Below, one piece after another: positions 26,179-34,356 of a stretch of DNA of 34,570 bases. The stretch's first letter is position 1, and each line of letters opens with the position of its first letter. The stretch lies in IMG/VR virus record IMGVR_UViG_2554235190_000007; one strand, 5' to 3'. Position numbers and translations under genes: made by a program. The notes under the pieces are model-generated. The model did no database searches and had not been told where the DNA came from. It saw nothing but the letters and a program-made list of their open reading frames with translations. This DNA is from a virus. Lineage: Duplodnaviria > Heunggongvirae > Uroviricota > Caudoviricetes.

Positions 26179-26517
26179 CTATTTCCCTGAATTTACGACG
26201 AAACTGTTCGAGCGGGCTGAAGCACTCATGCTCATAGTCTTCGCGGAGGTAGATAACCCGTTGTGTTTCCGGCTCCCAACGAATGACTCTGACGGGTACT
26301 CCGTAGTGATCTTTGAACCAGCGGTTAACTTGTCGCAAAGGACTGTCTCCTTCTGCCGGTTGAAATCACCCACAGCCCACTCTGCAAAGCTGTGGGTTAC
26401 AATTTCCCTGTCACCTGGTACATTCACTGCATAGCAATATTCCACCTTCGCTTTTCCACCCGGTACAGGAAGCGCAATCAGTTGCGAGCGACGGTAGTGT
26501 GTTGTTAAACTGTTCAT
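26179..26517 (-). CDS. hypothetical protein (112 aa) between CII-like and replication genes
   Basis: ATG overlapping the upstream stop (ATGA) and ending 10 nt before the replication gene start, with GAGG upstream of that start; strand and coupling support a real gene. No family recognised. Confidence 0.4.
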
Positions 26518-27083
26518 GCGTTAGTTTCTCCACAACCAGAAGCAATCGACGCCACGACGCCCGGAGCTGCACACTCGCGGGCGTCATTACTTTCTGAAAT
26601 GCAAAAAATTTTGTAGACAAGTGCTGCATGCTCCTGCAGCTTCGAAATTGAGAGATACAGCTCGTCGTTAATTGCTGTCTTCTCATGCGGTTCCACTACA
26701 CCGTCTTCGATTGCTGAACGAATCTGTTTTGAATAACTGCCGATCTGTTCAATGACTTCCAGCAGACGCTGGTTAATATCGGCGTTGTCCACATCCTCGA
26801 CGTCAGGAAGAGACACAAAGACGCCATTTGCAGACTGCGCCACAGCATCAGCAATGAAGTGAGTGCCACCAGCACGCTGTAAAACCATTGCCCATCCCAG
26901 CGGGAAAATCTGATCGCCATCTGCACGAAGGCGGTTGAATAAAGCGTTTTCTGTTACATCGAGCCAGTCAGCCGCTTCAGCGTAACCACCCGGCAACGCC
27001 GCGATAGTTTTTCTGACAGCTTTCACGTACCACTCAGGCTGTTTTTCTATTTTCCAGTGATGCTTACCCACGATTAGCCTCAT
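26514..27083 (-). CDS. CII-like regulatory protein (CP76 / YdaT-type)
   Basis: 189 aa immediately downstream of cro on the same strand, the position of cII in lambdoid phages; size and sequence are compatible with the large CII-type family, but the assignment is from memory. Confidence 0.45.
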
Positions 27084-27114
27084 CGTTCTGTGGTTAAAAA
27101 TTGAAAGTGTTCTG

Positions 27115-27315
27115 CTAATCTTTCGGATAGATATCCGGTCTTAAGTCAGATTTCGTAATTGCACCTGACGTGCATTGCTCAAGTTTTTTAGCCAGCACAA
27201 AACTGGCTTTTTTATAGCCATTGAAAACCAGCCGTAAGTAGCCAGGTGTTGAGCCAACTTTTCCGGCCAACTCGCCCTGCTGTTCTTTGGTTAAAGAGTC
27301 CCAATACGCTTTCAT
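27115..27315 (-). CDS. cro: Cro-like repressor (YdaS-type HTH)
   Basis: 66 aa, MKAYWDSLTKEQQGELAGKVGSTPGYLRLVFNGYKKASFVLAKKLEQCTSGAITKSDLRPDIYPKD; HTH and C-terminal DLRPDIYP match YdaS/Cro-like proteins. Divergent from cI with GGAGG 10 nt upstream. The track ORF 27115..27618 is a 5'-extended version that overlaps cI. Confidence 0.7.
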   Translation of the reverse strand: MKAYWDSLTKEQQGELAGKVGSTPGYLRLVFNGYKKASFVLAKKLEQCTSGAITKSDLRPDIYPKD

Positions 27316-27320
27316 ACAAT

Positions 27321-27389
27321 ATGTACCTCCGATGTACATATTACATGATTGAAATGAACCTTCAAGATACTTGTACCTTAACGGTACAA
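27321..27389. promoter_or_regulatory. right operator region: two 19-bp palindromic operators with divergent cro and cI promoters
   Basis: ATGTACC-TCCGA-TGTACAT (about 27321..27339) and TTGTACC-TTAAC-GGTACAA (about 27371..27389), sharing TGTACC half-sites. Candidate cro promoter on the minus strand TTGAAG-16-TAATAT; candidate cI promoter on the plus strand TTGTAC-17-TTTAAT placing the start at or next to the cI ATG (leaderless). Confidence 0.5.
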
Positions 27390-27405
27390 GGGTTTTAATT
27401 TCGTT

Positions 27406-28080
27406 ATGAAAACAATCCATGACATCCGGCGGTCTAACGCCAGAAAACTGAGAGATGGTGTTGGCGGGAATTCTTCCTTTGCCACTATGATTGATCGCGA
27501 GCCAACCCAGACCAGCAGGTTTATGGGAGATGGTGCTACTAAAAATATCGGTGACAGCATGGCACGACACATCGAAAAATGTTTCGACCTGCCTGTCGGA
27601 TGGCTCGATCAAGAACACCAGACAACGAACATCACAAAAAAACCTGATGTTTCAATCACTAATAAACAAATCACATTAGTCCCTGTCATATCATGGGTAC
27701 AGGCCGGAGCATGGAAAGAAGTTGGATATTCTGAGGTTGATTTGAGCACAGCAGAAACGTATCCCTGCCCTGTCCCCTGTGGGGAAATGACTTATATCTT
27801 GCGGGTGATAGGTGATTCAATGATTGATGAGTACCGCCCGGGAGACATGATTTTTGTCGATCCTGAAGTACCTGCCTGCCACGGTGACGACGTTATTGCA
27901 TTGATGCACGATACAGGTGAAACCACCTTCAAAAGGTTGATAGAAGATGGGACACAGCGTTATCTCAAAGCGTTAAACCCAAACTGGCCTGAGCCTTACA
28001 TTAAGATCAACGGTAATTGCTCTATAATTGGTACAGTGATTTTCTCAGGAAAACCAAGAAGATACAAAATCAAAGCCTAA
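27406..28080 (+). CDS. cI: CI-type prophage repressor (HTH plus S24 LexA-like peptidase domain)
   Basis: 224 aa; N-terminal HTH, Ala-Gly autocleavage site (WVQAGAWKE), Ser/Lys dyad context (VIGDSM ... TTFKRL); divergent from cro across the operator region; ATG start with no Shine-Dalgarno. Confidence 0.85.
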   Translation: MKTIHDIRRSNARKLRDGVGGNSSFATMIDREPTQTSRFMGDGATKNIGDSMARHIEKCFDLPVGWLDQEHQTTNITKKPDVSITNKQITLVPVISWVQAGAWKEVGYSEVDLSTAETYPCPVPCGEMTYILRVIGDSMIDEYRPGDMIFVDPEVPACHGDDVIALMHDTGETTFKRLIEDGTQRYLKALNPNWPEPYIKINGNCSIIGTVIFSGKPRRYKIKA

Positions 28081-28092
28081 TCAATGTTTATG

Positions 28093-28115
28093 AACCTGCT
28101 TCGGCAGGTTTTTTT
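28093..28115 (+). terminator. rho-independent terminator after cI
   Basis: AACCTGC-(4 nt)-GCAGGTT followed by TTTTT, starting 13 nt after the cI stop. Confidence 0.5.
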
Positions 28116-28119
28116 ATAC

Positions 28120-28152
28120 TTGACAATGTACCTTTGAGATACATAATGTACC
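28120..28152 (+). promoter_or_regulatory. pL-like promoter overlapped by repressor operator half-sites
   Basis: TTGACA - 16 nt - CATAAT on the plus strand, with ATGTACC repeated between -35 and -10 and again over the start region (ATGTACCTTTGAGATACAT resembles the right-operator sites). Confidence 0.45.
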
Positions 28153-28569
28153 CAAGAGAAACAACAAACAGGCAGGACGTCCACGAAGTAGCCGCCTGGG
28201 GCATATGAAGTCCAAGATGATTCGTTAGCAACAAAACGCCCATAGGACGCTTCGCTCTTTAACAATTTGAATATTTTCAGCGTCAATGATCTGTTTAGCT
28301 CCCTACAAGTAAATGTAGCGTAGCACCATGATAAATCCTGCTAGTGTTTAGTTAAAAATCGCGCGAGAGCAAGAACGACGTGAGGGCAGGCAATATTGAT
28401 AGTGTTATTGCTATTAGTTTATCAAAAATATTTAGACGACCCAGATGAATATTTTTAATACATACTCCCCCTAATTTAACAGGAGTAAATGTTGATGAAT
28501 AACGAGACATCTATACTCAACAATTGTATGATATGAACAATTATATAACATAATGTAGGAAAAATAAAA

Positions 28570-29166
28570 ATGGATTGGCATGACCTTATATCAAAGGTAA
28601 TTATCGGACTTGTTACAGGCTCAATCGCAGCTTACTTAACTGCGCGATATGCACTCGGCCGTTATTATAAAGAAAAATGGTGGGACAAAAGAATAGATTT
28701 GTATACGCAATTAGTTGACTGTGTTTATCTTCTAAAAAACACAGCTGACTATTGGTATAAACATGAGTTACATCACGCTTCACAATTCCCAACCTACTTT
28801 AGTTACAAATCAAAAGAAGAAAATGAAATCCTTAGCAAATCTTTCTCTAATGAGCTTGAAAAACTCAGTAGAATAGGTGAGCTATCTTCATTATTCTTAA
28901 CAGAAGAGTGTGGGGATAAAATCCGTTCATTCATTGAAAATGAAGAAAATCTATTTATACAATGGGAGTTTGATAGTATAGAGTTGATAGATGCCCACAA
29001 GTCAAGACTTGATAAATTAAAAGTATTACTAGACGATATTATCTCTGAAGCAAAGAGAGAGCTTAAGGTCAATAAAAAACATAACAGCCTAAAGAATATA
29101 AAGTGGTCCATAACTATGCCAGACCAAAAAAATGATGAGCCAATTAATTATTACGACAATCATTAA
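28570..29166 (+). CDS. hypothetical membrane-anchored protein (198 aa), AT-rich cassette downstream of cI
   Basis: ATG with AGGA upstream; one N-terminal TM helix (ISKVIIGLVTGSIAAYLTARYAL), W/Y-rich juxtamembrane segment (YYKEKWWDKRIDLY...DYWYKHELHH) and K/E-rich helical C-terminal domain; very AT-rich; clean terminator follows. No family recognised. Confidence 0.65.
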   Translation: MDWHDLISKVIIGLVTGSIAAYLTARYALGRYYKEKWWDKRIDLYTQLVDCVYLLKNTADYWYKHELHHASQFPTYFSYKSKEENEILSKSFSNELEKLSRIGELSSLFLTEECGDKIRSFIENEENLFIQWEFDSIELIDAHKSRLDKLKVLLDDIISEAKRELKVNKKHNSLKNIKWSITMPDQKNDEPINYYDNH

Positions 29167-29176
29167 AACACTTTAG

Positions 29177-29198
29177 AACCCGCTGGGCGGGTTTTATT
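29177..29198 (+). terminator. rho-independent terminator after ORF 28570..29166
   Basis: AACCCGC-(3 nt)-GCGGGTT followed by TTTATT, 11 nt after the stop codon. Confidence 0.6.
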
Positions 29199-29588
29199 CA
29201 AATATACTTTGCACATCACAAATAAAACTATAACGTCCTTCTTCTTTTCCTAATATCTTATATCTACTTATTTATAAGCGGCTTACAGATCTTCAACAGA
29301 TAAACCTAATGAAGGCGACAATGTTCTGATGAATAGCCACCTTTTTACTCAACTGAAAGCGCGTTCTGTCCCTTGTCATTAAGTGCCAGTTCGTTAAGTC
29401 CAAAACCTCCGGAACGCGCTTTCAATTGAGTGGGGAAAATAACTGGCGATGGCAGCCGCCCGTTGCACTAAGTGCCTCTGGATGGGGCATTTACTGAAAC
29501 GAAACCAAAACTTTTAATCGCCTTATGGCGAGGGATTCGTGCAACCAAAAATCGTGCGGTGCAGCGCACCAATTAAGGAGAACTAACG

Positions 29589-30125
29589 ATGAGTTTTATC
29601 CAGACTCTTACCGGTAAGAAGTTCAATTATATCAACTCCACCATTGACGATATTTATATCGAGGATATCGCCGGTGCGCTTTCAAATATCTGCCGCTTCG
29701 CGGGACACTTGCCGGATTTTTACAGCGTGGCGCAGCATTCCGTTCTGTGCAGTCAACTTGTGGCGCCAGAGTTCGCCTTTGAAGCGTTAATGCATGATGC
29801 AACAGAAGCGTATTGTCAGGACATCCCCGCGCAACTGAAACGCCTTCTTCCTGACTATAAACGGATGGAAGAAAAAATAGACGCCGTAATCCGTGAGAAA
29901 TACGGGTTACCCCCGGTTATGAGCACGCCCGTGAAATATGCCGATCTCATCATGCTGGCAACCGAACGCCGCGATCTCGGGCTTGATGATGGCTCTTTCT
30001 GGCCTCTACTGGAAGGTATCCCAGCAACAGAGATGTTCAAAGTTATTCCACTGTCGCCAGGCCATGCCTACGGGATGTTTATGGAACGTTTTAACGAGTT
30101 ATCGGAGTTACGCAAATGCGCATGA
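29589..30125 (+). CDS. HD-domain phosphohydrolase (YfdR-like)
   Basis: 178 aa with HD motif (FEALMHDATEAY) and upstream His (FAGHLPDFYSVAQHS); strong Shine-Dalgarno AAGGAG; first gene of the early-left operon. Confidence 0.75.
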   Translation: MSFIQTLTGKKFNYINSTIDDIYIEDIAGALSNICRFAGHLPDFYSVAQHSVLCSQLVAPEFAFEALMHDATEAYCQDIPAQLKRLLPDYKRMEEKIDAVIREKYGLPPVMSTPVKYADLIMLATERRDLGLDDGSFWPLLEGIPATEMFKVIPLSPGHAYGMFMERFNELSELRKCA

Positions 30126-30478
30126 ATGTTTTCGAAATGGAAGGGTTTCTTCGCGGGAAATGTGTACCGCGAGATCTGAAAGTGAATGAAACGGATGCTG
30201 AATACCTGGTGCGTAAATTCGATGCGCTTGAAGCTAAATGTGCGGCACTGGAAAACAAAGTAATACCAGTGTCAACTGAACTGCCACCAGCAAATGAAAG
30301 TGTTTTGTTATTCGATGCTAACGGAGAAGGCTGGCTAATTGGCTGGCGTTCTCTCTGGTACACCTGGGGACAAAAAGAAACCGGAGACTGGCAGTGGACA
30401 TTTCAGGTCGGGGACCTTGAAAACGTCAATATCACTCACTGGGCAGTAATGCCAAAAGCACCGGAGGCTGGAGCATAA
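30116..30478 (+). CDS. DUF551-domain protein
   Basis: 120 aa; Trp-rich C-terminal region (GWLIGWRSLWYTWGQKETGDWQWTF...ITHWAVMP) typical of DUF551; start overlaps the HD gene stop. Confidence 0.65.
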   Translation: MRMNVFEMEGFLRGKCVPRDLKVNETDAEYLVRKFDALEAKCAALENKVIPVSTELPPANESVLLFDANGEGWLIGWRSLWYTWGQKETGDWQWTFQVGDLENVNITHWAVMPKAPEAGA

Positions 30479-30783
30479 TGACCACTTTTACCGACAAAGA
30501 ACTGATTAAAGAAATCAAAGAGCGTATCAGCAGCCTTGACGTGCGAGACGATATTGAGCGCCGTGCTTATGAAATCGCACTCCTATCTCTGGAAGTAGAG
30601 CCAGATGAACGCGAATCCTATGAATTATTTATGGAAAAACGTTTCGGTGGCTTAGTAGATAGTCGGAGAGCAAAAAACGGCGATAACGAATACATGGCAT
30701 GGGATATGACTCTCGGTTGGATCGTCTGGCAACAACGAGCTGGCATTCATTTTTCAACAATATCACAGCAAGAGGTGAAATAA
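30478..30783 (+). CDS. hypothetical protein (101 aa), early-left operon
   Basis: ATG overlapping the upstream stop; no family recognised. Confidence 0.5.
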   Translation: MTTFTDKELIKEIKERISSLDVRDDIERRAYEIALLSLEVEPDERESYELFMEKRFGGLVDSRRAKNGDNEYMAWDMTLGWIVWQQRAGIHFSTISQQEVK

Positions 30784-31133
30784 TGGAACCATACAGCCTC
30801 ACGCTAGATGAGGCCTGTCATTTTCTCAAGATATCCAGACCGACTGCCATTAACTGGATACGCACAGGGCGTCTGCAGGCAACACGCAAAGATCCCACTA
30901 AGAATAAATCTCCTTACCTCACAACACGACAAGCCTGCATTGCGGCGCTTCAGTCTCCGCTGCATACTGTCCAGGTGAGCGCGGGTGATGGCATAACAGA
31001 GGAAAGAAAATGTCACTCTTCCGCAGAGGTGAAATATGGTACGCCAGTTTCACATTGCCGAACGGTAAAAGATTTAAACAGTCTCTTGGAACAAAGGACA
31101 AAAGGCAGGCGACAGAACTCCATGACAAGCTAA
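30783..31133 (+). CDS. xis: excisionase-like HTH protein
   Basis: Starts at the ATG overlapping the upstream stop (TAATG) with GAGGTG upstream; [36 protein letters not shown] is a typical excisionase/AlpA-type HTH. The frame stays open to 31133, overlapping the integrase start by about 120 nt, so the 3' end is uncertain. The track ORF 30699..31133 includes an unlikely 5' extension. Confidence 0.55.
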
Positions 31134-32173
31134 AGGCTGAAGCATGGCGGGTCAGCAAACTTGGTGAAATTCCTGATATAACGTTCGAGGAAGCGTGTGT
31201 CAGGTGGCTTGAAGAGAAAGCACATAAAAAATCACTGGACGATGACAAAAGCCGGATCGGATTCTGGCTTCAACATTTCGCAGGAATGCAACTAAGAGAC
31301 ATTACTGAATCAAAAATTTATTCAGCAATGCAGAAAATGACGAACCGGCGTCATGAGGAAAACTGGAAACTCAGGGCAGAAGCATGCAGAAAAAAAGGGA
31401 AACCTGTTCCAGAATACACGCCAAAACCAGCGTCCGTTGCAACGAAGGCTACGCATCTTTCATTTATAAAGGCCCTGCTAAGAGCCGCAGAGCGTGAATG
31501 GAAAATGCTGGATAAGGCACCAATTATTAAAGTGCCTCAACCAAAGAATAAACGGATCCGCTGGCTGGAGCCTCATGAAGCACAAAGGCTGATTGATGAA
31601 TGTCCGGAGCCATTAAAGTCTGTTGTTGAATTTGCACTTGCAACAGGCTTAAGACGCTCGAACATCATCAACCTTGAATGACAACAAATAGACATGCAGC
31701 GCCGGGTGGCATGGATAAACCCGGAAGAGAGTAAATCAAACCGCGCAATTGGCGTTGCGCTGAATGATACTGCATGTCGCGTATTGAAAAAACAAATCGG
31801 GAATCATCACCGTTGGGTATTTGTGTATAAGGAAAGCTGTACCAAACCAGACGGAACGAAAGCGCCAACAGTCAGGAAGATGCGGTATGACGCAAACACA
31901 GCCTGGAAAGCGGCGCTGAGACGAGCAGGTATTGATGATTTCAGATTTCACGACTTGAGACACACCTGGGCAAGTTGGCTGGTTCAAGCCGGAGTCCCGT
32001 TATCAGTGTTACAGGAAATGGGAGGCTGGGAGTCTATCGAAATGGTTCGTCGATATGCTCACCTCGCACCTAATCACCTTACCGAACACGCACGGCAAAT
32101 AGACTCGATTCTGAACCCATCGGTCCCAAATTTGTCCCAGTCAAGAAATAAGGAAGGTACTAATGATGTGTAA
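31010..32173 (+). pseudogene. int: tyrosine integrase interrupted by one in-frame stop codon (read as TGA at 31679..31681)
   Basis: Track ORFs 31010..31681 and 31694..32173 are in the same frame. The first carries the N-terminal arm-binding domain and the first catalytic Arg ([13 protein letters not shown]); the second carries the rest of the catalytic domain ([18 protein letters not shown]). The stop falls where family members usually have Trp (LEWQQID), so a single TGG to TGA change is the simplest explanation. Confidence 0.7.
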
Positions 32174-32236: not shown

Positions 32237-32324
32237 TAAATTGGTCCTGTAAAATCAATACCTATCGAATTTAAATAGATTTTTTGCCACAATATTGCCA
32301 CAGTTCGTTAGGAATCAGACAGAA

Positions 32325-33398
32325 ATGGCGACTATACGCAAACGTGGTAATTACCAATGGGAAGCTCAAATCCGTAAACGTGGTTTTCCCTCTCAAACCA
32401 AAACCTTTAACACCAAAGTAGAAGCAGATGCTTGGGCCAAAATGATCGAGTCAGAAATGGCGAGAGGAGTTTGGCTTAGCCGCAGCGAAGCGGAATCTAC
32501 GACATTGTATGAAGCCCTAACGCGCTATGAAAAAGAGATTGTTCCCGACAAAAAAGGAGCAGTGCAAGACCGATCATTGGTGCGGATACTAAAAGGCACT
32601 CAGCTGGCAAAAAACTATATGGCCAGCATCAGGAGTGCCGATGTCGCCAAGCTAAGAGATGAATGGTTGAAAATTTATGCTCCTGCAACCGTTTTAAGGC
32701 GTTTGGCCTTACTTTCTCATGTATTCAATGTTTCGCGGAAAGAATGGGGCATGGAGAGCCTGCTGAACCCCGTAGAGGCCATTCGCAAACCCCAACCCAA
32801 GAACTCAAGGACCAGACGCCTGGAAGCGCTGCCTTTAGTTTCTGAGCAAACCGGTGTTACGTCAGGAAAGGAATTAGCCAACGAGATCGAACATATCATT
32901 GCCGCAACACATTCATTAGTATTGCCAGCAATCATTCTTCTGGCGTTAGAGACAGCCATGCGCCGTAGCGAAATTGCAGAACTTCGATGGCGCTTTATCG
33001 ATCTTGATAGGCGAGTTGCACACCTGCCGGATACTAAGAATGGTAATGCTCGCGATGTCCCCTTATCCACAAAGGCTGTTATGGTACTATCCAATCTAAA
33101 GGAGCGTTCTAAACAAGCTGATGACAAGGTTTTTGGAATGCGTGCCGATGCGATCACCCGCGCTTTTGATCGAGCTGTAAAGCGCGCCAGAGAAAGATAT
33201 GAACAAGCTAAACCTCAATGTGATGACACCTTCCTCAAAGATTTAAGATTTCACGATCTCCGGCATGAAGCGACCTCTCGCTTGGCTGAGATTTTCCCCA
33301 TGCACGAGCTGACAAAAATCACGGGGCATAAAGACCCGAGAATGCTAATGCGGTATTATCATCCAAAAGCTGAGGATTTAGCGTTAAAGTTGAAATAA
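32325..33398 (+). CDS. tyrosine integrase of a second, adjacent integrative element
   Basis: Arm-type N-terminus (MATIRKRGNYQWEAQIRKRGFPSQTKTFNTKVEADAWAKMIE) and catalytic motifs (RRSEIAELRW, FHDLRHEATS, LMRYYHP). Track ORF starts at TTG 32295; the ATG at about 32325 is the more likely start. Begins about 90 nt after the att fragment and points away from it. Confidence 0.8.
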   Translation: MATIRKRGNYQWEAQIRKRGFPSQTKTFNTKVEADAWAKMIESEMARGVWLSRSEAESTTLYEALTRYEKEIVPDKKGAVQDRSLVRILKGTQLAKNYMASIRSADVAKLRDEWLKIYAPATVLRRLALLSHVFNVSRKEWGMESLLNPVEAIRKPQPKNSRTRRLEALPLVSEQTGVTSGKELANEIEHIIAATHSLVLPAIILLALETAMRRSEIAELRWRFIDLDRRVAHLPDTKNGNARDVPLSTKAVMVLSNLKERSKQADDKVFGMRADAITRAFDRAVKRARERYEQAKPQCDDTFLKDLRFHDLRHEATSRLAEIFPMHELTKITGHKDPRMLMRYYHPKAEDLALKLK

Positions 33399-33408
33399 AG
33401 GATATCTT

Positions 33409-34356
33409 ATGCGTTACATTAGAAAACACATTGCAAATTTTGATTTCAATATTGTATCCATTACATATTTGCTGATTGCTTGCATTGTAATCATGAAGTT
33501 CCCATTATTACTTCAAGATAAAACCTTCTTGGTTTGTGGGTTATTCCTCTCGGTAGCATTCATTTTTTGTGCCTATAACAACAAAAAAACAATCGTCAAT
33601 AAAATGATTGAGCACAGCATCATTAAATGGATTGGAACTGTATTGATTTTTTCAAGTTGTATGTGGTATGCAAAACATAAAATTAATTTTGATTACGATA
33701 TTCAACCGGAATACTTAATATACTCATCTTATGGTTATGCTTTCGCAATGGCCATTCCTCTATCTCTATCCATTTATGGCCTTAGCATTTTCATATACTT
33801 ATACCTTGGAAGAATTACTGCTTATCAATGCTTTTACGCGGCAATTTTGACCATCCCTTTTTCTGCAATGCTAAGAGAGACGATTGAAAAAAACCAAGAG
33901 GTTGATTTCAAAGTTATTATGTTGTTAGTTTTCGGGTTAGCTTTCGGTATCATAACCATGTTCAAAGCAATGCCAAAAACAAATAAAGAATCAACTTCAC
34001 CCAATAAAAAGAATCTATTATACATTGCAAAAACAATGGCACAAGATATTAATAGAGCAAAACTAATTTTAATGATATGGTTTAAAAAAATACTTATATG
34101 TTCGAATAGCTACTTAAGAGTTGCAGATCTATTATCGACAGCAATTGCATTATTATTCATTGGTGTTTTTTCAATAAAGATAATACCAGAGTATCAGAAG
34201 TCTTTTCTTTTACTTGATGCTTTTTCCAAGACAGATTGCAATACAAAAAAAGATTCATTTTCATACATCAGGAAATCGAAAAACGAATGCTACAGAATTA
34301 ATTCTAAAGGAATAGAAATTATCGAAATGATATCATTTACCTCATCAGCTGACTAA
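33409..34356 (+). CDS. hypothetical polytopic inner-membrane protein (315 aa, about 7-8 TM helices)
   Basis: ATG 10 nt after the integrase stop with AAGGA upstream; extremely AT-rich; multiple hydrophobic segments (e.g. IVSITYLLIACIVIM, FLVCGLFLSVAFIFCAY, YAFAMAIPLSLSIYGLSIFIYLYLG, VIMLLVFGLAFGIITMF, LLSTAIALLFIGVFSIKII); no family recognised. Confidence 0.6.
   Translation: MRYIRKHIANFDFNIVSITYLLIACIVIMKFPLLLQDKTFLVCGLFLSVAFIFCAYNNKKTIVNKMIEHSIIKWIGTVLIFSSCMWYAKHKINFDYDIQPEYLIYSSYGYAFAMAIPLSLSIYGLSIFIYLYLGRITAYQCFYAAILTIPFSAMLRETIEKNQEVDFKVIMLLVFGLAFGIITMFKAMPKTNKESTSPNKKNLLYIAKTMAQDINRAKLILMIWFKKILICSNSYLRVADLLSTAIALLFIGVFSIKIIPEYQKSFLLLDAFSKTDCNTKKDSFSYIRKSKNECYRINSKGIEIIEMISFTSSAD

What the first reader, a model, noticed from the sequence alone, without database searches (positions are those of the whole stretch)
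28081..29200. AT-rich membrane-anchored single-gene cassette in the rex/sieB-equivalent slot next to cI
ORF 28570..29166 is on the cI strand, after the cI terminator and an operator-overlapped strong promoter (TTGACA-16-CATAAT). It has its own ribosome binding site and a clean terminator, and is much more AT-rich than the phage backbone. The protein has one N-terminal TM helix, a Trp/Tyr-rich juxtamembrane segment and a K/E-rich helical domain with no motif I can assign. In lambdoid phages the lysogen-expressed genes at this position (rexAB in lambda, sieB-type genes) are exclusion or abortive-infection functions. This is my best candidate for an undescribed single-gene defence or superinfection-exclusion determinant.
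Basis: partly seen in the sequence, partly recalled or inferred. Interest (0 to 1): 0.75.

Follow-up and report, generated by a model that had tools for sequence, protein, structure and literature searches.

The report
Orphan membrane-protein cassette beside prophage repressor
A prophage carries a self-contained, AT-rich gene for a small membrane-anchored helical protein of an uncharacterised but widespread family, placed just after the repressor-controlled early promoter, where phages often keep genes that exclude rival phages; that role is plausible here but unproven.

Summary
ORF 28570-29166 (198 aa) is a real gene under purifying selection (dN/dS 0.14-0.21). It is AT-rich (33% GC against 51% for the window). 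It has an SD, an intrinsic terminator (29175-29198) and its own sigma-70-like promoter (28504-28532), whose hexamers are invariant across five diverged loci.

The protein has an N-terminal TM helix with a conserved small-residue stripe, a near-invariant juxtamembrane motif (FYxEKWWEKK) and a cytoplasmic four-helix bundle (AF2 pLDDT 90). It belongs to phrog_17948. It has no Pfam, NCBIfam, PADLOC, PDB-sequence or specific fold match. The family has at least 271 representatives at 50% identity, across many phyla, on prophages, plasmids and chromosomal islands.

The slot was misread. TTGACA-16-CATAAT is the cI-repressed PL analogue of an e14-immunity, SfV-like prophage. A phi80-type nutL follows it, and the gene sits where phi80 has N. 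No N homologue is present. So this is the N/sieB side of PL, not the rex side, and lysogen expression would depend on the gene's own promoter.

Close homologues always follow a cI-type repressor. Distant ones sometimes neighbour RM, BREX, Gabija or Kiwa genes. A defence or exclusion role is the best guess (about 0.4) and is untested.

The parts
27406..28080 (+). cI-type repressor. It is the same RefSeq protein as E. coli K-12 e14 YmfK/CohE.
   Evidence: Peptidase_S24 E=1.5e-26; phrog_4. RefSeq protein WP_000848748.1 is annotated both in ECONIH4, whose 1501 bases matching window 28100-29600 are 100% identical, and at K-12 ymfK.
28092..28118 (+). Intrinsic terminator of cI
   Evidence: Terminator scan; fold dG -14.3, z -4.3; annotated as a terminator in SfV and Ayreon.
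28120..28147 (+). PL-analogue promoter, TTGACA-16-CATAAT, with operator OL at 28126-28144 inside its spacer
   Evidence: 11 of 12 consensus matches. The operator palindrome ATGTAC-N7-GTACAT occurs only at 27321, 27371 and 28126 in the window. The arrangement matches pL/OL of phi80.
28253..28428 (+). phi80-type nutL leader: boxA CGCTCTTTAACAA (28253-28265), a boxB-like core region (28304-28317, degenerate here) and a conserved structured segment
   Evidence: 71% identical over 140 nt to phi80 nutL. The majority variant is 99.5% identical to the phi80 region annotated 'nutL boxA / nutL core'. Covariation: 96.5% of cells paired against 31-44% in slid controls.
28504..28532 (+). The cassette's own sigma-70-like promoter, GAGACA-17-TATGAT
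   Evidence: 9 of 12 matches. AGACAT and GTAT are invariant, and the -10 hexamer reads TATGAT, TATAAT or TATAGT, at fixed spacing in five loci whose proteins are 56-84% identical. The surrounding sequence varies. Activity was not tested.
28557..28560 (+). Shine-Dalgarno AGGA, 9 nt upstream of the ATG
   Evidence: Read directly from the sequence. The AG of this AGGA is invariant in alignment A3.
28570..29166 (+). 198-aa bitopic membrane protein, a member of phrog_17948. TM residues 6-28 correspond to nt 28585-28653; the conserved juxtamembrane motif, residues 29-45, to nt 28654-28704.
   Evidence: ORF; phrog_17948 E=6e-95; dN/dS 0.14-0.21; 271 representative homologues; AF2 pLDDT 90.2; conservation profile.
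29175..29198 (+). Intrinsic terminator of the cassette
   Evidence: dG -13.6, z -3.2. Equivalent hairpins with different loop sequences occur in Raoultella and Citrobacter.
28227..29483 (.). Mosaic segment that differs from SfV. The breakpoint against Ayreon is at 28178. SfV carries orf33-orf31 here, and e14 carries ymfJ/ymfI.
   Evidence: blastn breakpoints; SfV, Ayreon and e14 annotation. The whole cassette is present in only 16 of 5426 E. coli genomes.

Best explanation
ORF 28570-29166 is a moron-type accessory gene. It is an AT-rich, self-contained unit (promoter, SD, ORF, terminator) inserted in the mosaic hotspot immediately downstream of PL/OL and a phi80-type nutL, in an e14-immunity, SfV-like prophage. 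It sits where phi80 has gene N.

Shown:
- The gene is real and under purifying selection.
- Its product is a 198-aa protein with a single N-terminal TM helix. That helix carries a conserved small-residue stripe (G13, G17, A21, T24, A28).
- A near-invariant interfacial motif, L-x-R-F-Y-x-E-K-W-W-E-K-K, follows the TM helix.
- The cytoplasmic domain is a four-helix bundle. Its last helix ends in the conserved motif AKK[DE]LK.
- The close subfamily has a disordered tail ending in a conserved YYDN[HYF].
- The family (phrog_17948) is stand-alone, has no conserved partner gene, and travels on prophages, plasmids and genomic islands in many phyla.

Inferred:
- Topology is N-out/C-in, from the positive-inside rule.
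- The gene is transcribed at a low constitutive level from its own promoter in the lysogen and strongly from PL after derepression.
- The TM stripe drives homo-oligomerisation or packing against a membrane partner.
- The protein acts at the cytoplasmic face of the inner membrane as a single-gene phage-exclusion determinant. It could block the inner-membrane step of genome entry by superinfecting phages. Alternatively, it could perturb or depolarise the membrane after a phage cue is sensed by the bundle, which would be abortive infection in the manner of RexB or Csx28.
For: - Cassette anatomy and composition.
- Footprinted own promoter.
- Purifying selection.
- Family breadth and motif conservation.
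- Confident TM plus four-helix-bundle model.
- No conserved partner among 107 dereplicated neighbourhoods.
- Close homologues always lie downstream of differing cI-type repressors. A 37%-identical member lies directly after an N gene.
- More distant members occupy other typical moron sites, near xis/int and between the Mu-F-like and scaffold genes.
- Among 50,697 isolated-phage records, only two phages carry the family (three records: CobraSix is deposited twice, plus OS31). Both encode an integrase and an excisionase. This argues against a core lytic function.
- In 72 dereplicated chromosomal loci, about 7 of 107 immediate neighbours are strong PADLOC hits (Type III Res E=0, BrxL 6e-242, GajA 8e-217, GajB, KwaB, TmtA, an SMC-like protein). 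About 10-12 of 129 neighbours at two or three genes' distance are also strong hits (RM types I/II/III, BrxH, dGTPase, DrmD/HmaA, TIR-TM, PDC-S02).
- A plasmid copy lies near HEPN-associated and restriction genes.
- The cI-N interval is a recognised hotspot that holds rexAB and bstA: PMC8585504.
Against: - There is no experimental or expression evidence.
- There is no similarity to any known defence, Sie or Abi protein: PADLOC, PHROG annotation, and hhalign against SieB, SieA and RexB at below 1% probability.
- Fold matches are generic four-helix bundles only.
- The defence-gene association is modest, roughly 7-8% of neighbours. No matched control was run, and any mobile-element cargo gene could show the same.
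- The strongest promoter upstream is the repressed PL, so the main expression may come during lytic growth rather than lysogeny.
- The periplasmic tail is only about 5 residues, which limits contact with incoming virion components.
- Some copies are truncated (L090, L091, L112, L194).
Confidence: 0.4

Rival explanations
1. Early lytic-cycle accessory function. The gene is expressed mainly from PL as the first early-left gene after induction or infection. It would then manipulate a host inner-membrane process such as division, proteolysis (FtsH), transport or membrane energetics. It could also protect the already infected cell from superinfection. Lambda Kil and cIII and T4 Imm do comparable things in their own operons.
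For: - It lies directly downstream of PL/OL and nutL, in the N slot.
- Related members sit inside early-left operons, after N or next to xis/int with RecT/exonuclease genes.
- PL matches 11 of 12 consensus positions, against 9 of 12 for the gene's own promoter.
Against: - The family is found in only two isolated phages among 50,697 records.
- It also occurs on plasmids and in chromosomal islands with no phage genes nearby.
- A dedicated, conserved promoter and terminator are not needed for a gene that is only a passenger in the operon.
Confidence: 0.25
2. Lysogenic-conversion gene unrelated to phages. A membrane protein that changes host envelope physiology, for example stress tolerance, colonisation or antibiotic and bacteriocin susceptibility.
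For: - Moron architecture and AT-rich foreign composition.
- Purifying selection.
- Carriage on a prophage whose integrase has a premature stop, so host benefit could explain its retention.
Against: - Nothing in the sequence points to a particular envelope function.
- Its distribution across very different phyla and habitats argues for a generic target rather than a niche-specific one.
- Some members sit next to defence genes.
Confidence: 0.15
3. Lysis-related membrane protein: a holin, antiholin or i-spanin-like component.
For: A single N-terminal TM segment followed by a charged helical domain resembles class III holins and i-spanins in outline.
Against: - It is not in the lysis region, and it sits on the opposite strand from the late genes.
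- Listing ORFs of 40 aa or more between 25500 and 32000 shows no plus-strand ORF embedded in or overlapping 28570-29166. A short lipoprotein (o-spanin) partner was not specifically sought.
- The charge distribution puts the helical domain in the cytoplasm: net -1 before the TM segment and net +4 after it.
- No PHROG lysis family matches.
Confidence: 0.05
4. Decaying or functionless hitch-hiker ORF in a degenerate prophage.
For: - The integrase has an in-frame stop.
- nutL has no N gene.
- Some copies of the gene are truncated.
- It is rare in E. coli, in 16 of 5426 genomes.
Against: - dN/dS is 0.14-0.21 while synonymous sites are near saturation.
- The motif is near-invariant across 68 distant homologues.
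- The promoter, SD and terminator are conserved.
Confidence: 0.05

Closest known systems
Morons of lambdoid phages (Hendrix/Juhala sense), and the mosaic hotspot between cI and N that holds lambda rexAB and BTP1 bstA
   Same: A self-contained promoter-gene-terminator unit whose base composition differs from its flanks. It is inserted between conserved backbone genes next to the repressor, and different phages carry different cargo at the same place (PMC8585504).
   Different: rexAB and bstA lie between cI and PL and share or follow the repressor's transcription. This gene lies beyond the cI terminator, PL/OL and nutL. The protein is unrelated to RexA, RexB or BstA.
SieB (lambda, P22, Rac): an abortive-infection or exclusion gene inside the early-left operon
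   Same: Similar size (184 aa in lambda against 198 aa here). A single accessory gene on the N side of PL.
   Different: No sequence or profile similarity: no Pfam SieB hit, and hhalign probability 0.2%. In the lambda record, sieB is on the strand opposite to N.
Csx28 (CRISPR-Cas13b accessory membrane pore) and RexB-type membrane effectors
   Same: From my own recollection of the literature, Csx28 has an N-terminal TM helix and a cytoplasmic helical domain, and oligomerises into a pore that depolarises infected cells. That is the kind of mechanism proposed here.
phi80 pL-nutL-N region
   Same: The leader upstream of the gene is a diverged copy of phi80 nutL, with boxA and the downstream conserved RNA, placed after a repressor-controlled PL.
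   Different: Gene N is absent, and the membrane-protein cassette stands in its place. The boxB-like 'core' hairpin is degenerate in the window copy (read from alignments A4 and A7).

Membership tests
phrog_17948 (PHROGs family of unknown function) | Full-length match to the family profile | tested here: met
   E=6.1e-95, residues 1-185 against profile positions 1-185 of 185. All 68 aligned homologues also match.
Moron (autonomous accessory cassette in a phage genome) | Own promoter upstream of the gene | tested here: inconclusive
   GAGACA-17-TATGAT at 28504-28532. The hexamers and their spacing are conserved in five diverged loci. Activity was not measured.
Moron (autonomous accessory cassette in a phage genome) | Own factor-independent terminator | tested here: met
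   Hairpin plus U tract at 29175-29198, z -3.2. It is conserved in two other genera.
Moron (autonomous accessory cassette in a phage genome) | Base composition unlike the flanks, and presence/absence polymorphism between otherwise collinear phages | tested here: met
   GC 0.33-0.36 against 0.45-0.51. Sharp breakpoints at 28227 (or 28178) and 29483 against SfV and Ayreon. Present in 16 of 5426 E. coli genomes, while the flanking leader is in 1536.
Lambda Rex system / rex slot | Located between cI and OL/PL and co-transcribed with cI | tested here: not met
   The cI terminator and the operator-bearing PL analogue lie between cI and the gene. Compare the lambda map.
Lambda Rex system / rex slot | Homology to RexA or RexB | tested here: not met
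   hhalign against RexB gives probability 0.5%. No PADLOC hit.
SieB superinfection exclusion family | Sequence or profile similarity to SieB | tested here: not met
   No Pfam SieB hit at E<=1. hhalign probability 0.2%.
SieA (P22) | Sequence or profile similarity | tested here: not met
   hhalign probability 0.55%.
Known anti-phage defence systems (PADLOC-DB v2.0.0) | Match to any defence-protein model | tested here: not met
   0 families at E<=10.
Defence-island resident ('guilt by association') | A majority of family members lie next to known defence genes | tested here: inconclusive
   About 7 of 107 immediate neighbours, and about 10-12 of 129 neighbours two or three genes away, are strong PADLOC hits. 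This is above a roughly 1.5% literature baseline (abstract of PMC13434031). It is far from a majority, and no matched control was run.
phi80-type nutL (for the leader at 28253-28428) | boxA, and sequence homology to the annotated phi80 nutL | tested here: met
   CGCTCTTTAACAA at 28253; 71% identity over 140 nt to phi80; annotation in NC_021190 and M11919.
phi80-type nutL (for the leader at 28253-28428) | A cognate N gene downstream | tested here: not met
   tblastn with the phi80, lambda and L180 N proteins finds nothing in the window or in loci of the close subfamily.
Holin / i-spanin | Location in the lysis cassette, with a periplasmic C-domain or an embedded lipoprotein partner | tested here: not met
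   It lies in the immunity-left region. Charge bias predicts a cytoplasmic C-domain. Listing ORFs of 40 aa or more shows no embedded plus-strand ORF. Topology was not measured.

The most novel reading that the evidence does not exclude
phrog_17948 is a new, phylum-spanning family of single-protein anti-phage effectors that act in the membrane. A TM small-residue zipper would assemble into an oligomer or pore at the inner membrane. The conserved FYxEKWWEKK/AKKELK membrane-proximal site and the cytoplasmic four-helix bundle would gate it. In some lambdoid prophages this family has displaced the antiterminator gene N behind an orphan nutL.
Probability: 0.3. Interest if true: 0.7.

Novelty: new member of a known kind. 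Interest (0 to 1): 0.45.

Why it matters
If the protein excludes or aborts phages, it would add a compact new family of single-gene defence proteins. It is about 160-200 aa and has a confident structural model and an obvious mutational target: the EKWW motif and the TM stripe. The family is present in prophages, plasmids and islands from Enterobacteria to Planctomycetes and candidate-phyla bacteria.

It would also extend the 'next to the repressor' defence hotspot of lambdoid phages to the N side of PL.

Independently of function, the locus shows a phi80-type nutL kept without its N gene. That raises the question of how early-left transcription passes the cassette's terminator in these e14/SfV-type prophages.

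If the gene has no phage phenotype, it is an ordinary hypothetical moron.

Tried and rejected
- **Family libraries.** Pfam, NCBIfam and PADLOC on the protein gave nothing. Pfam, NCBIfam and PHROGs on 68 homologues gave only phrog_17948 and scattered chance-level hits, including ProA and Csx28 at one member each.
- **Solved structures by sequence.** A profile search of PDB sequences gave only a chance gp41 coiled-coil match.
- **Known exclusion proteins.** hhalign against lambda SieB, P22 SieA and lambda RexB was negative.
- **Conserved partner gene.** Clustering neighbours in 107 dereplicated loci, and pooled Pfam scans of neighbours, found no partner gene.
- **Rfam.** Scanning 26500-30500 gave nothing.
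- **The leader as a new RNA.** I first treated the conserved leader as a possible new RNA, then identified it as the annotated phi80 nutL. Folding the window copy alone is not better than shuffled sequence (z 0.41), and six sequences gave no net covariation. Support appeared only with 26 sequences.
- **Leader peptide.** A 15-codon ORF at 28490-28537 behind an AGGAG is not conserved as an ORF in the Raoultella copy (reading of alignment A3), so I rejected it.
- **Literature.** Searches for the protein accession and for motif strings found nothing. The supplement of a metagenomic defence screen is not held. A 'ProA' search was uninformative.
Full report
**1. What is there**

The window is most of an SfV-like prophage.
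- Its immunity region is that of the E. coli K-12 cryptic prophage e14. The repressor carries RefSeq accession WP_000848748.1. That accession is annotated both in strain ECONIH4, whose cassette region (window 28100-29600) is 100% identical to the window, and at K-12 ymfK/cohE.
- cro, ymfL and the replication genes run leftward on the minus strand. cI (27406-28080) runs rightward.
- cI ends in a strong intrinsic terminator at 28092-28111.
- Next comes TTGACA-16-CATAAT at 28120-28147, with 11 of 12 consensus matches.
- The 19-bp palindrome ATGTAC-N7-GTACAT occurs three times in the whole window: twice between cro and cI (27321, 27371) and once inside the spacer of this promoter (28126-28144).
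- The promoter is therefore the repressor-controlled early-left promoter, the PL/OL analogue. phi80 has the same arrangement.
- The terminator-PL-leader segment is conserved in 1536 of 5426 complete E. coli genomes.

**2. The leader is a phi80-type nutL, and there is no N gene**

From 28253 the leader carries a consensus boxA (CGCTCTTTAACAA), followed by about 160 nt that stay conserved (65-72% identity) in loci where synonymous sites of the adjacent gene are saturated (pS 0.71-0.78).
- The element lies on the same strand downstream of an S24 repressor gene in at least 74 of 124 loci. The first ORF after it is highly variable.
- Its majority variant is 99.5% identical to the region of phage phi80 that GenBank annotates as 'nutL boxA' and 'nutL core', between pL and gene N. 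The window copy is 71% identical to phi80 over 140 nt.
- With 26 non-redundant copies a consensus fold is supported: 96.5% of cells are paired, against 31-44% when partners are slid. Ten pairs show compensatory changes, and 0 of 500 shuffles reach the observed values.
- Rfam has no model for it.
- No phi80-, lambda- or L180-type N protein is encoded in the window or in loci of the close subfamily.

The 198-aa ORF therefore stands exactly where phi80 has N, 140 nt after the element.

**3. The cassette**

Against SfV the window differs from 28227 to 29483. Against Ayreon it differs from 28178. SfV has orf33-orf31 there, and e14 has ymfJ/ymfI.
- The segment has 35.5% GC and the ORF 33.3%, against 50.8% for the window.
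- The region upstream of the ATG was aligned across five loci whose proteins are 56-84% identical. AGACAT and GTAT are invariant, and the -10 hexamer reads TATGAT, TATAAT or TATAGT. The two blocks sit 17 nt apart, and the sequence around them varies.
- This footprint coincides with the scanned promoter GAGACA-17-TATGAT at 28504-28532. An SD (AGGA, 28557-28560) follows.
- After the stop codon, a hairpin plus U tract at 29175-29198 folds better than shuffled sequence (z -3.2). It recurs in Raoultella and Citrobacter with different loop sequences.

This is the classical moron layout. Promoter activity is inferred, not shown.

**4. The gene is real, and the protein belongs to an uncharacterised, widespread family**

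- Pairwise dN/dS is 0.14-0.21.
- The word-indexed protein search found only 10 relatives, in Citrobacter, Raoultella and E. coli. Exhaustive HMMER over 1.84 billion representatives found 271 at E<=1e-3. Nearly all of those listed are 150-200 aa, and they match residues 1 to about 170.
- All 68 aligned members match phrog_17948, a family of unknown function.
- None matches a Pfam family convincingly. NCBIfam gives only scattered single hits. PADLOC gives none.
- The alignment shows an acidic N-tail.
- The TM helix has small residues at positions 13, 17, 21, 24 and 28 (G/A/S/T in 59-68 of 68 sequences).
- A near-invariant block follows: L29, R31, F32, Y33, E35, K36, W37, W38, E39, K40, K41 and Y45.
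- The C-terminal helix ends in A161-K-K-[DE]-L165-K.
- AlphaFold2 with this alignment gives pLDDT 90.2 and pTM 0.76. One helix runs from residue 3 to 70 (the TM segment continuing into the cytoplasm). It then packs with helices 82-104, 112-133 and 139-172 as an up-down four-helix bundle. Residues 173-198 have low confidence.
- By the bundle's connectivity, the conserved end of helix 4 should lie next to the juxtamembrane motif, so the conserved surface would be membrane-proximal. This is an inference.
- Charges are net -1 before the TM segment and net +4 after it. That predicts N-out/C-in, which is also an inference.
- In the close subfamily the variable tail ends in a conserved NYYDN[HYF].
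- Profile comparison with lambda SieB, P22 SieA and lambda RexB is negative.

**5. Where the family lives**

- Close homologues (56-100% identity) in Raoultella, Citrobacter and metagenomic contigs always lie downstream of a cI-type S24 repressor on the same strand. The repressors themselves differ (210-246 aa), and nutL precedes the gene.
- A 37%-identical member lies directly after an N gene.
- About 30%-identical members in Enterobacter phage CobraSix and Serratia phage OS31 sit at the end of the early-left operon, one or two genes before xis/int.
- Another subfamily sits between the Mu-F-like head gene and the scaffold or major-capsid genes.
- Others are on plasmid-like contigs or in chromosomal islands across many phyla.
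- No neighbour is conserved across 107 dereplicated loci.
- Three tblastn queries from different subfamilies find the family in only two isolated phages (three records) among 50,697 records. Both encode an integrase and an excisionase.
- In 72 dereplicated chromosomal loci, strong PADLOC matches among immediate neighbours include a Type III restriction enzyme, BrxL, GajA, GajB, KwaB, TmtA and an SMC-like ATPase.
- At two or three genes' distance there are RM type I/II/III components, BrxH, a dGTPase, DrmD/HmaA, TIR-TM and PDC-S02.
- That is roughly 7-8% of neighbours, against a literature figure of about 1.5% of genes (abstract of PMC13434031, seen). I could not run a matched control, and mobile-element cargo in general is enriched near defence genes. 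I rate this as suggestive only.

**6. Interpretation**

Its positional argument is only half right. The gene does lie in the recognised mosaic hotspot beside the repressor, which the literature places between cI and N and which holds rexAB and bstA (PMC8585504). But it lies on the far side of the cI terminator, PL/OL and nutL. That is the N/sieB side, and the 'strong promoter' should be silent in a lysogen.

Expression in lysogens rests on the second, footprinted promoter. After induction, the gene would be the first thing transcribed from PL. With no N, transcripts should largely stop at the cassette's terminator.

My preferred reading (0.4) is a stand-alone phage-exclusion determinant acting at the membrane. 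The reasons are:
- the moron architecture;
- positional conservation next to repressors;
- occurrence at other moron sites;
- near-absence from isolated phages;
- occasional defence-island neighbours;
- a conserved TM packing stripe plus an interfacial motif, which place the functional site at the inner membrane.

Whether it blocks genome entry or triggers membrane failure cannot be decided from sequence. The main rival (0.25) is an early-lytic host-manipulating or self-protecting function driven by PL.

**7. Novelty and score**

The kind of thing is known: a prophage accessory cassette in the immunity-region hotspot. The nutL element is also already annotated in phi80. The protein family is undescribed, and no paper in the searchable library mentions the accession or the motif. 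I file it as a new member of a known kind, with interest 0.45. It is a clean, testable candidate with a good structural model and clear mutational targets, but it has no functional evidence, and comparable hypothetical morons are common.

Noticed in passing
window 28253-28428 (+): A phi80-type nutL (consensus boxA plus about 160 nt of conserved RNA with covariation support) is present, but no N homologue is encoded anywhere in the window. The boxB-like 'core' hairpin (CACG-TAAA-CGTG in phi80) is degenerate here (TACAAGTAAATGTA). The part beyond boxA and the core has no Rfam family. It could be a larger cis-acting antitermination RNA than the GenBank annotation suggests.
   Followed up: partly
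window 31679-31681 (within int, 31010-32173): The tyrosine integrase has an in-frame TGA (…NLE*QQIDMQ…), most simply a TGG to TGA change. It splits the gene into ORFs of 223 and 159 aa, so this prophage copy may be unable to excise. The ECONIH4 copy instead carries an IS1634-family insertion between the DUF551 gene and xis.
   Followed up: partly
window 27115-28274; L306 (E. coli K-12 e14): The immunity module (cro, cI, terminator, PL/OL and the first ~80 nt of the leader) is that of cryptic prophage e14 in K-12 (YmfT/YmfK), grafted onto an SfV-like morphogenesis backbone. In e14, the slot after PL holds ymfJ/ymfI.
   Followed up: yes
L017, L021, L155 and relatives (viral and genome loci): One subfamily of the same protein family is inserted between the Mu-F-like head-morphogenesis gene and the scaffold/major-capsid genes. 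It sits in a conserved terminase-portal-MuF-[gene]-scaffold-capsid block, which is a second recurrent insertion site for this family.
   Followed up: partly
window 29199-29483: About 285 nt of AT-rich non-coding sequence between the cassette terminator and the point where homology to SfV resumes. It is about 77% conserved with the Citrobacter copy but not with Raoultella. It contains two terminator-like hairpins on the minus strand (near 29445-29460 and 29554-29571) and only very short ORFs. Its function is unknown.
   Followed up: no
L090, L091, L112, L194 (IMG/VR contigs): Some copies of the 198-aa gene that are otherwise 94-98% identical are truncated or interrupted: a 66-aa C-terminal fragment, or only residues 1-48 matched. 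The gene is therefore occasionally lost by decay.
   Followed up: no
window ~32233 onward: Homology to SfV, SfII and SfI ends about 84 nt after position 32150, at the end of int and attP. The sequence beyond, including ORFs 32295-33398 and 33409-34356 (the latter 31-34% GC), is therefore outside this prophage. ECONIH4 annotates a second integrase pseudogene there.
   Followed up: no
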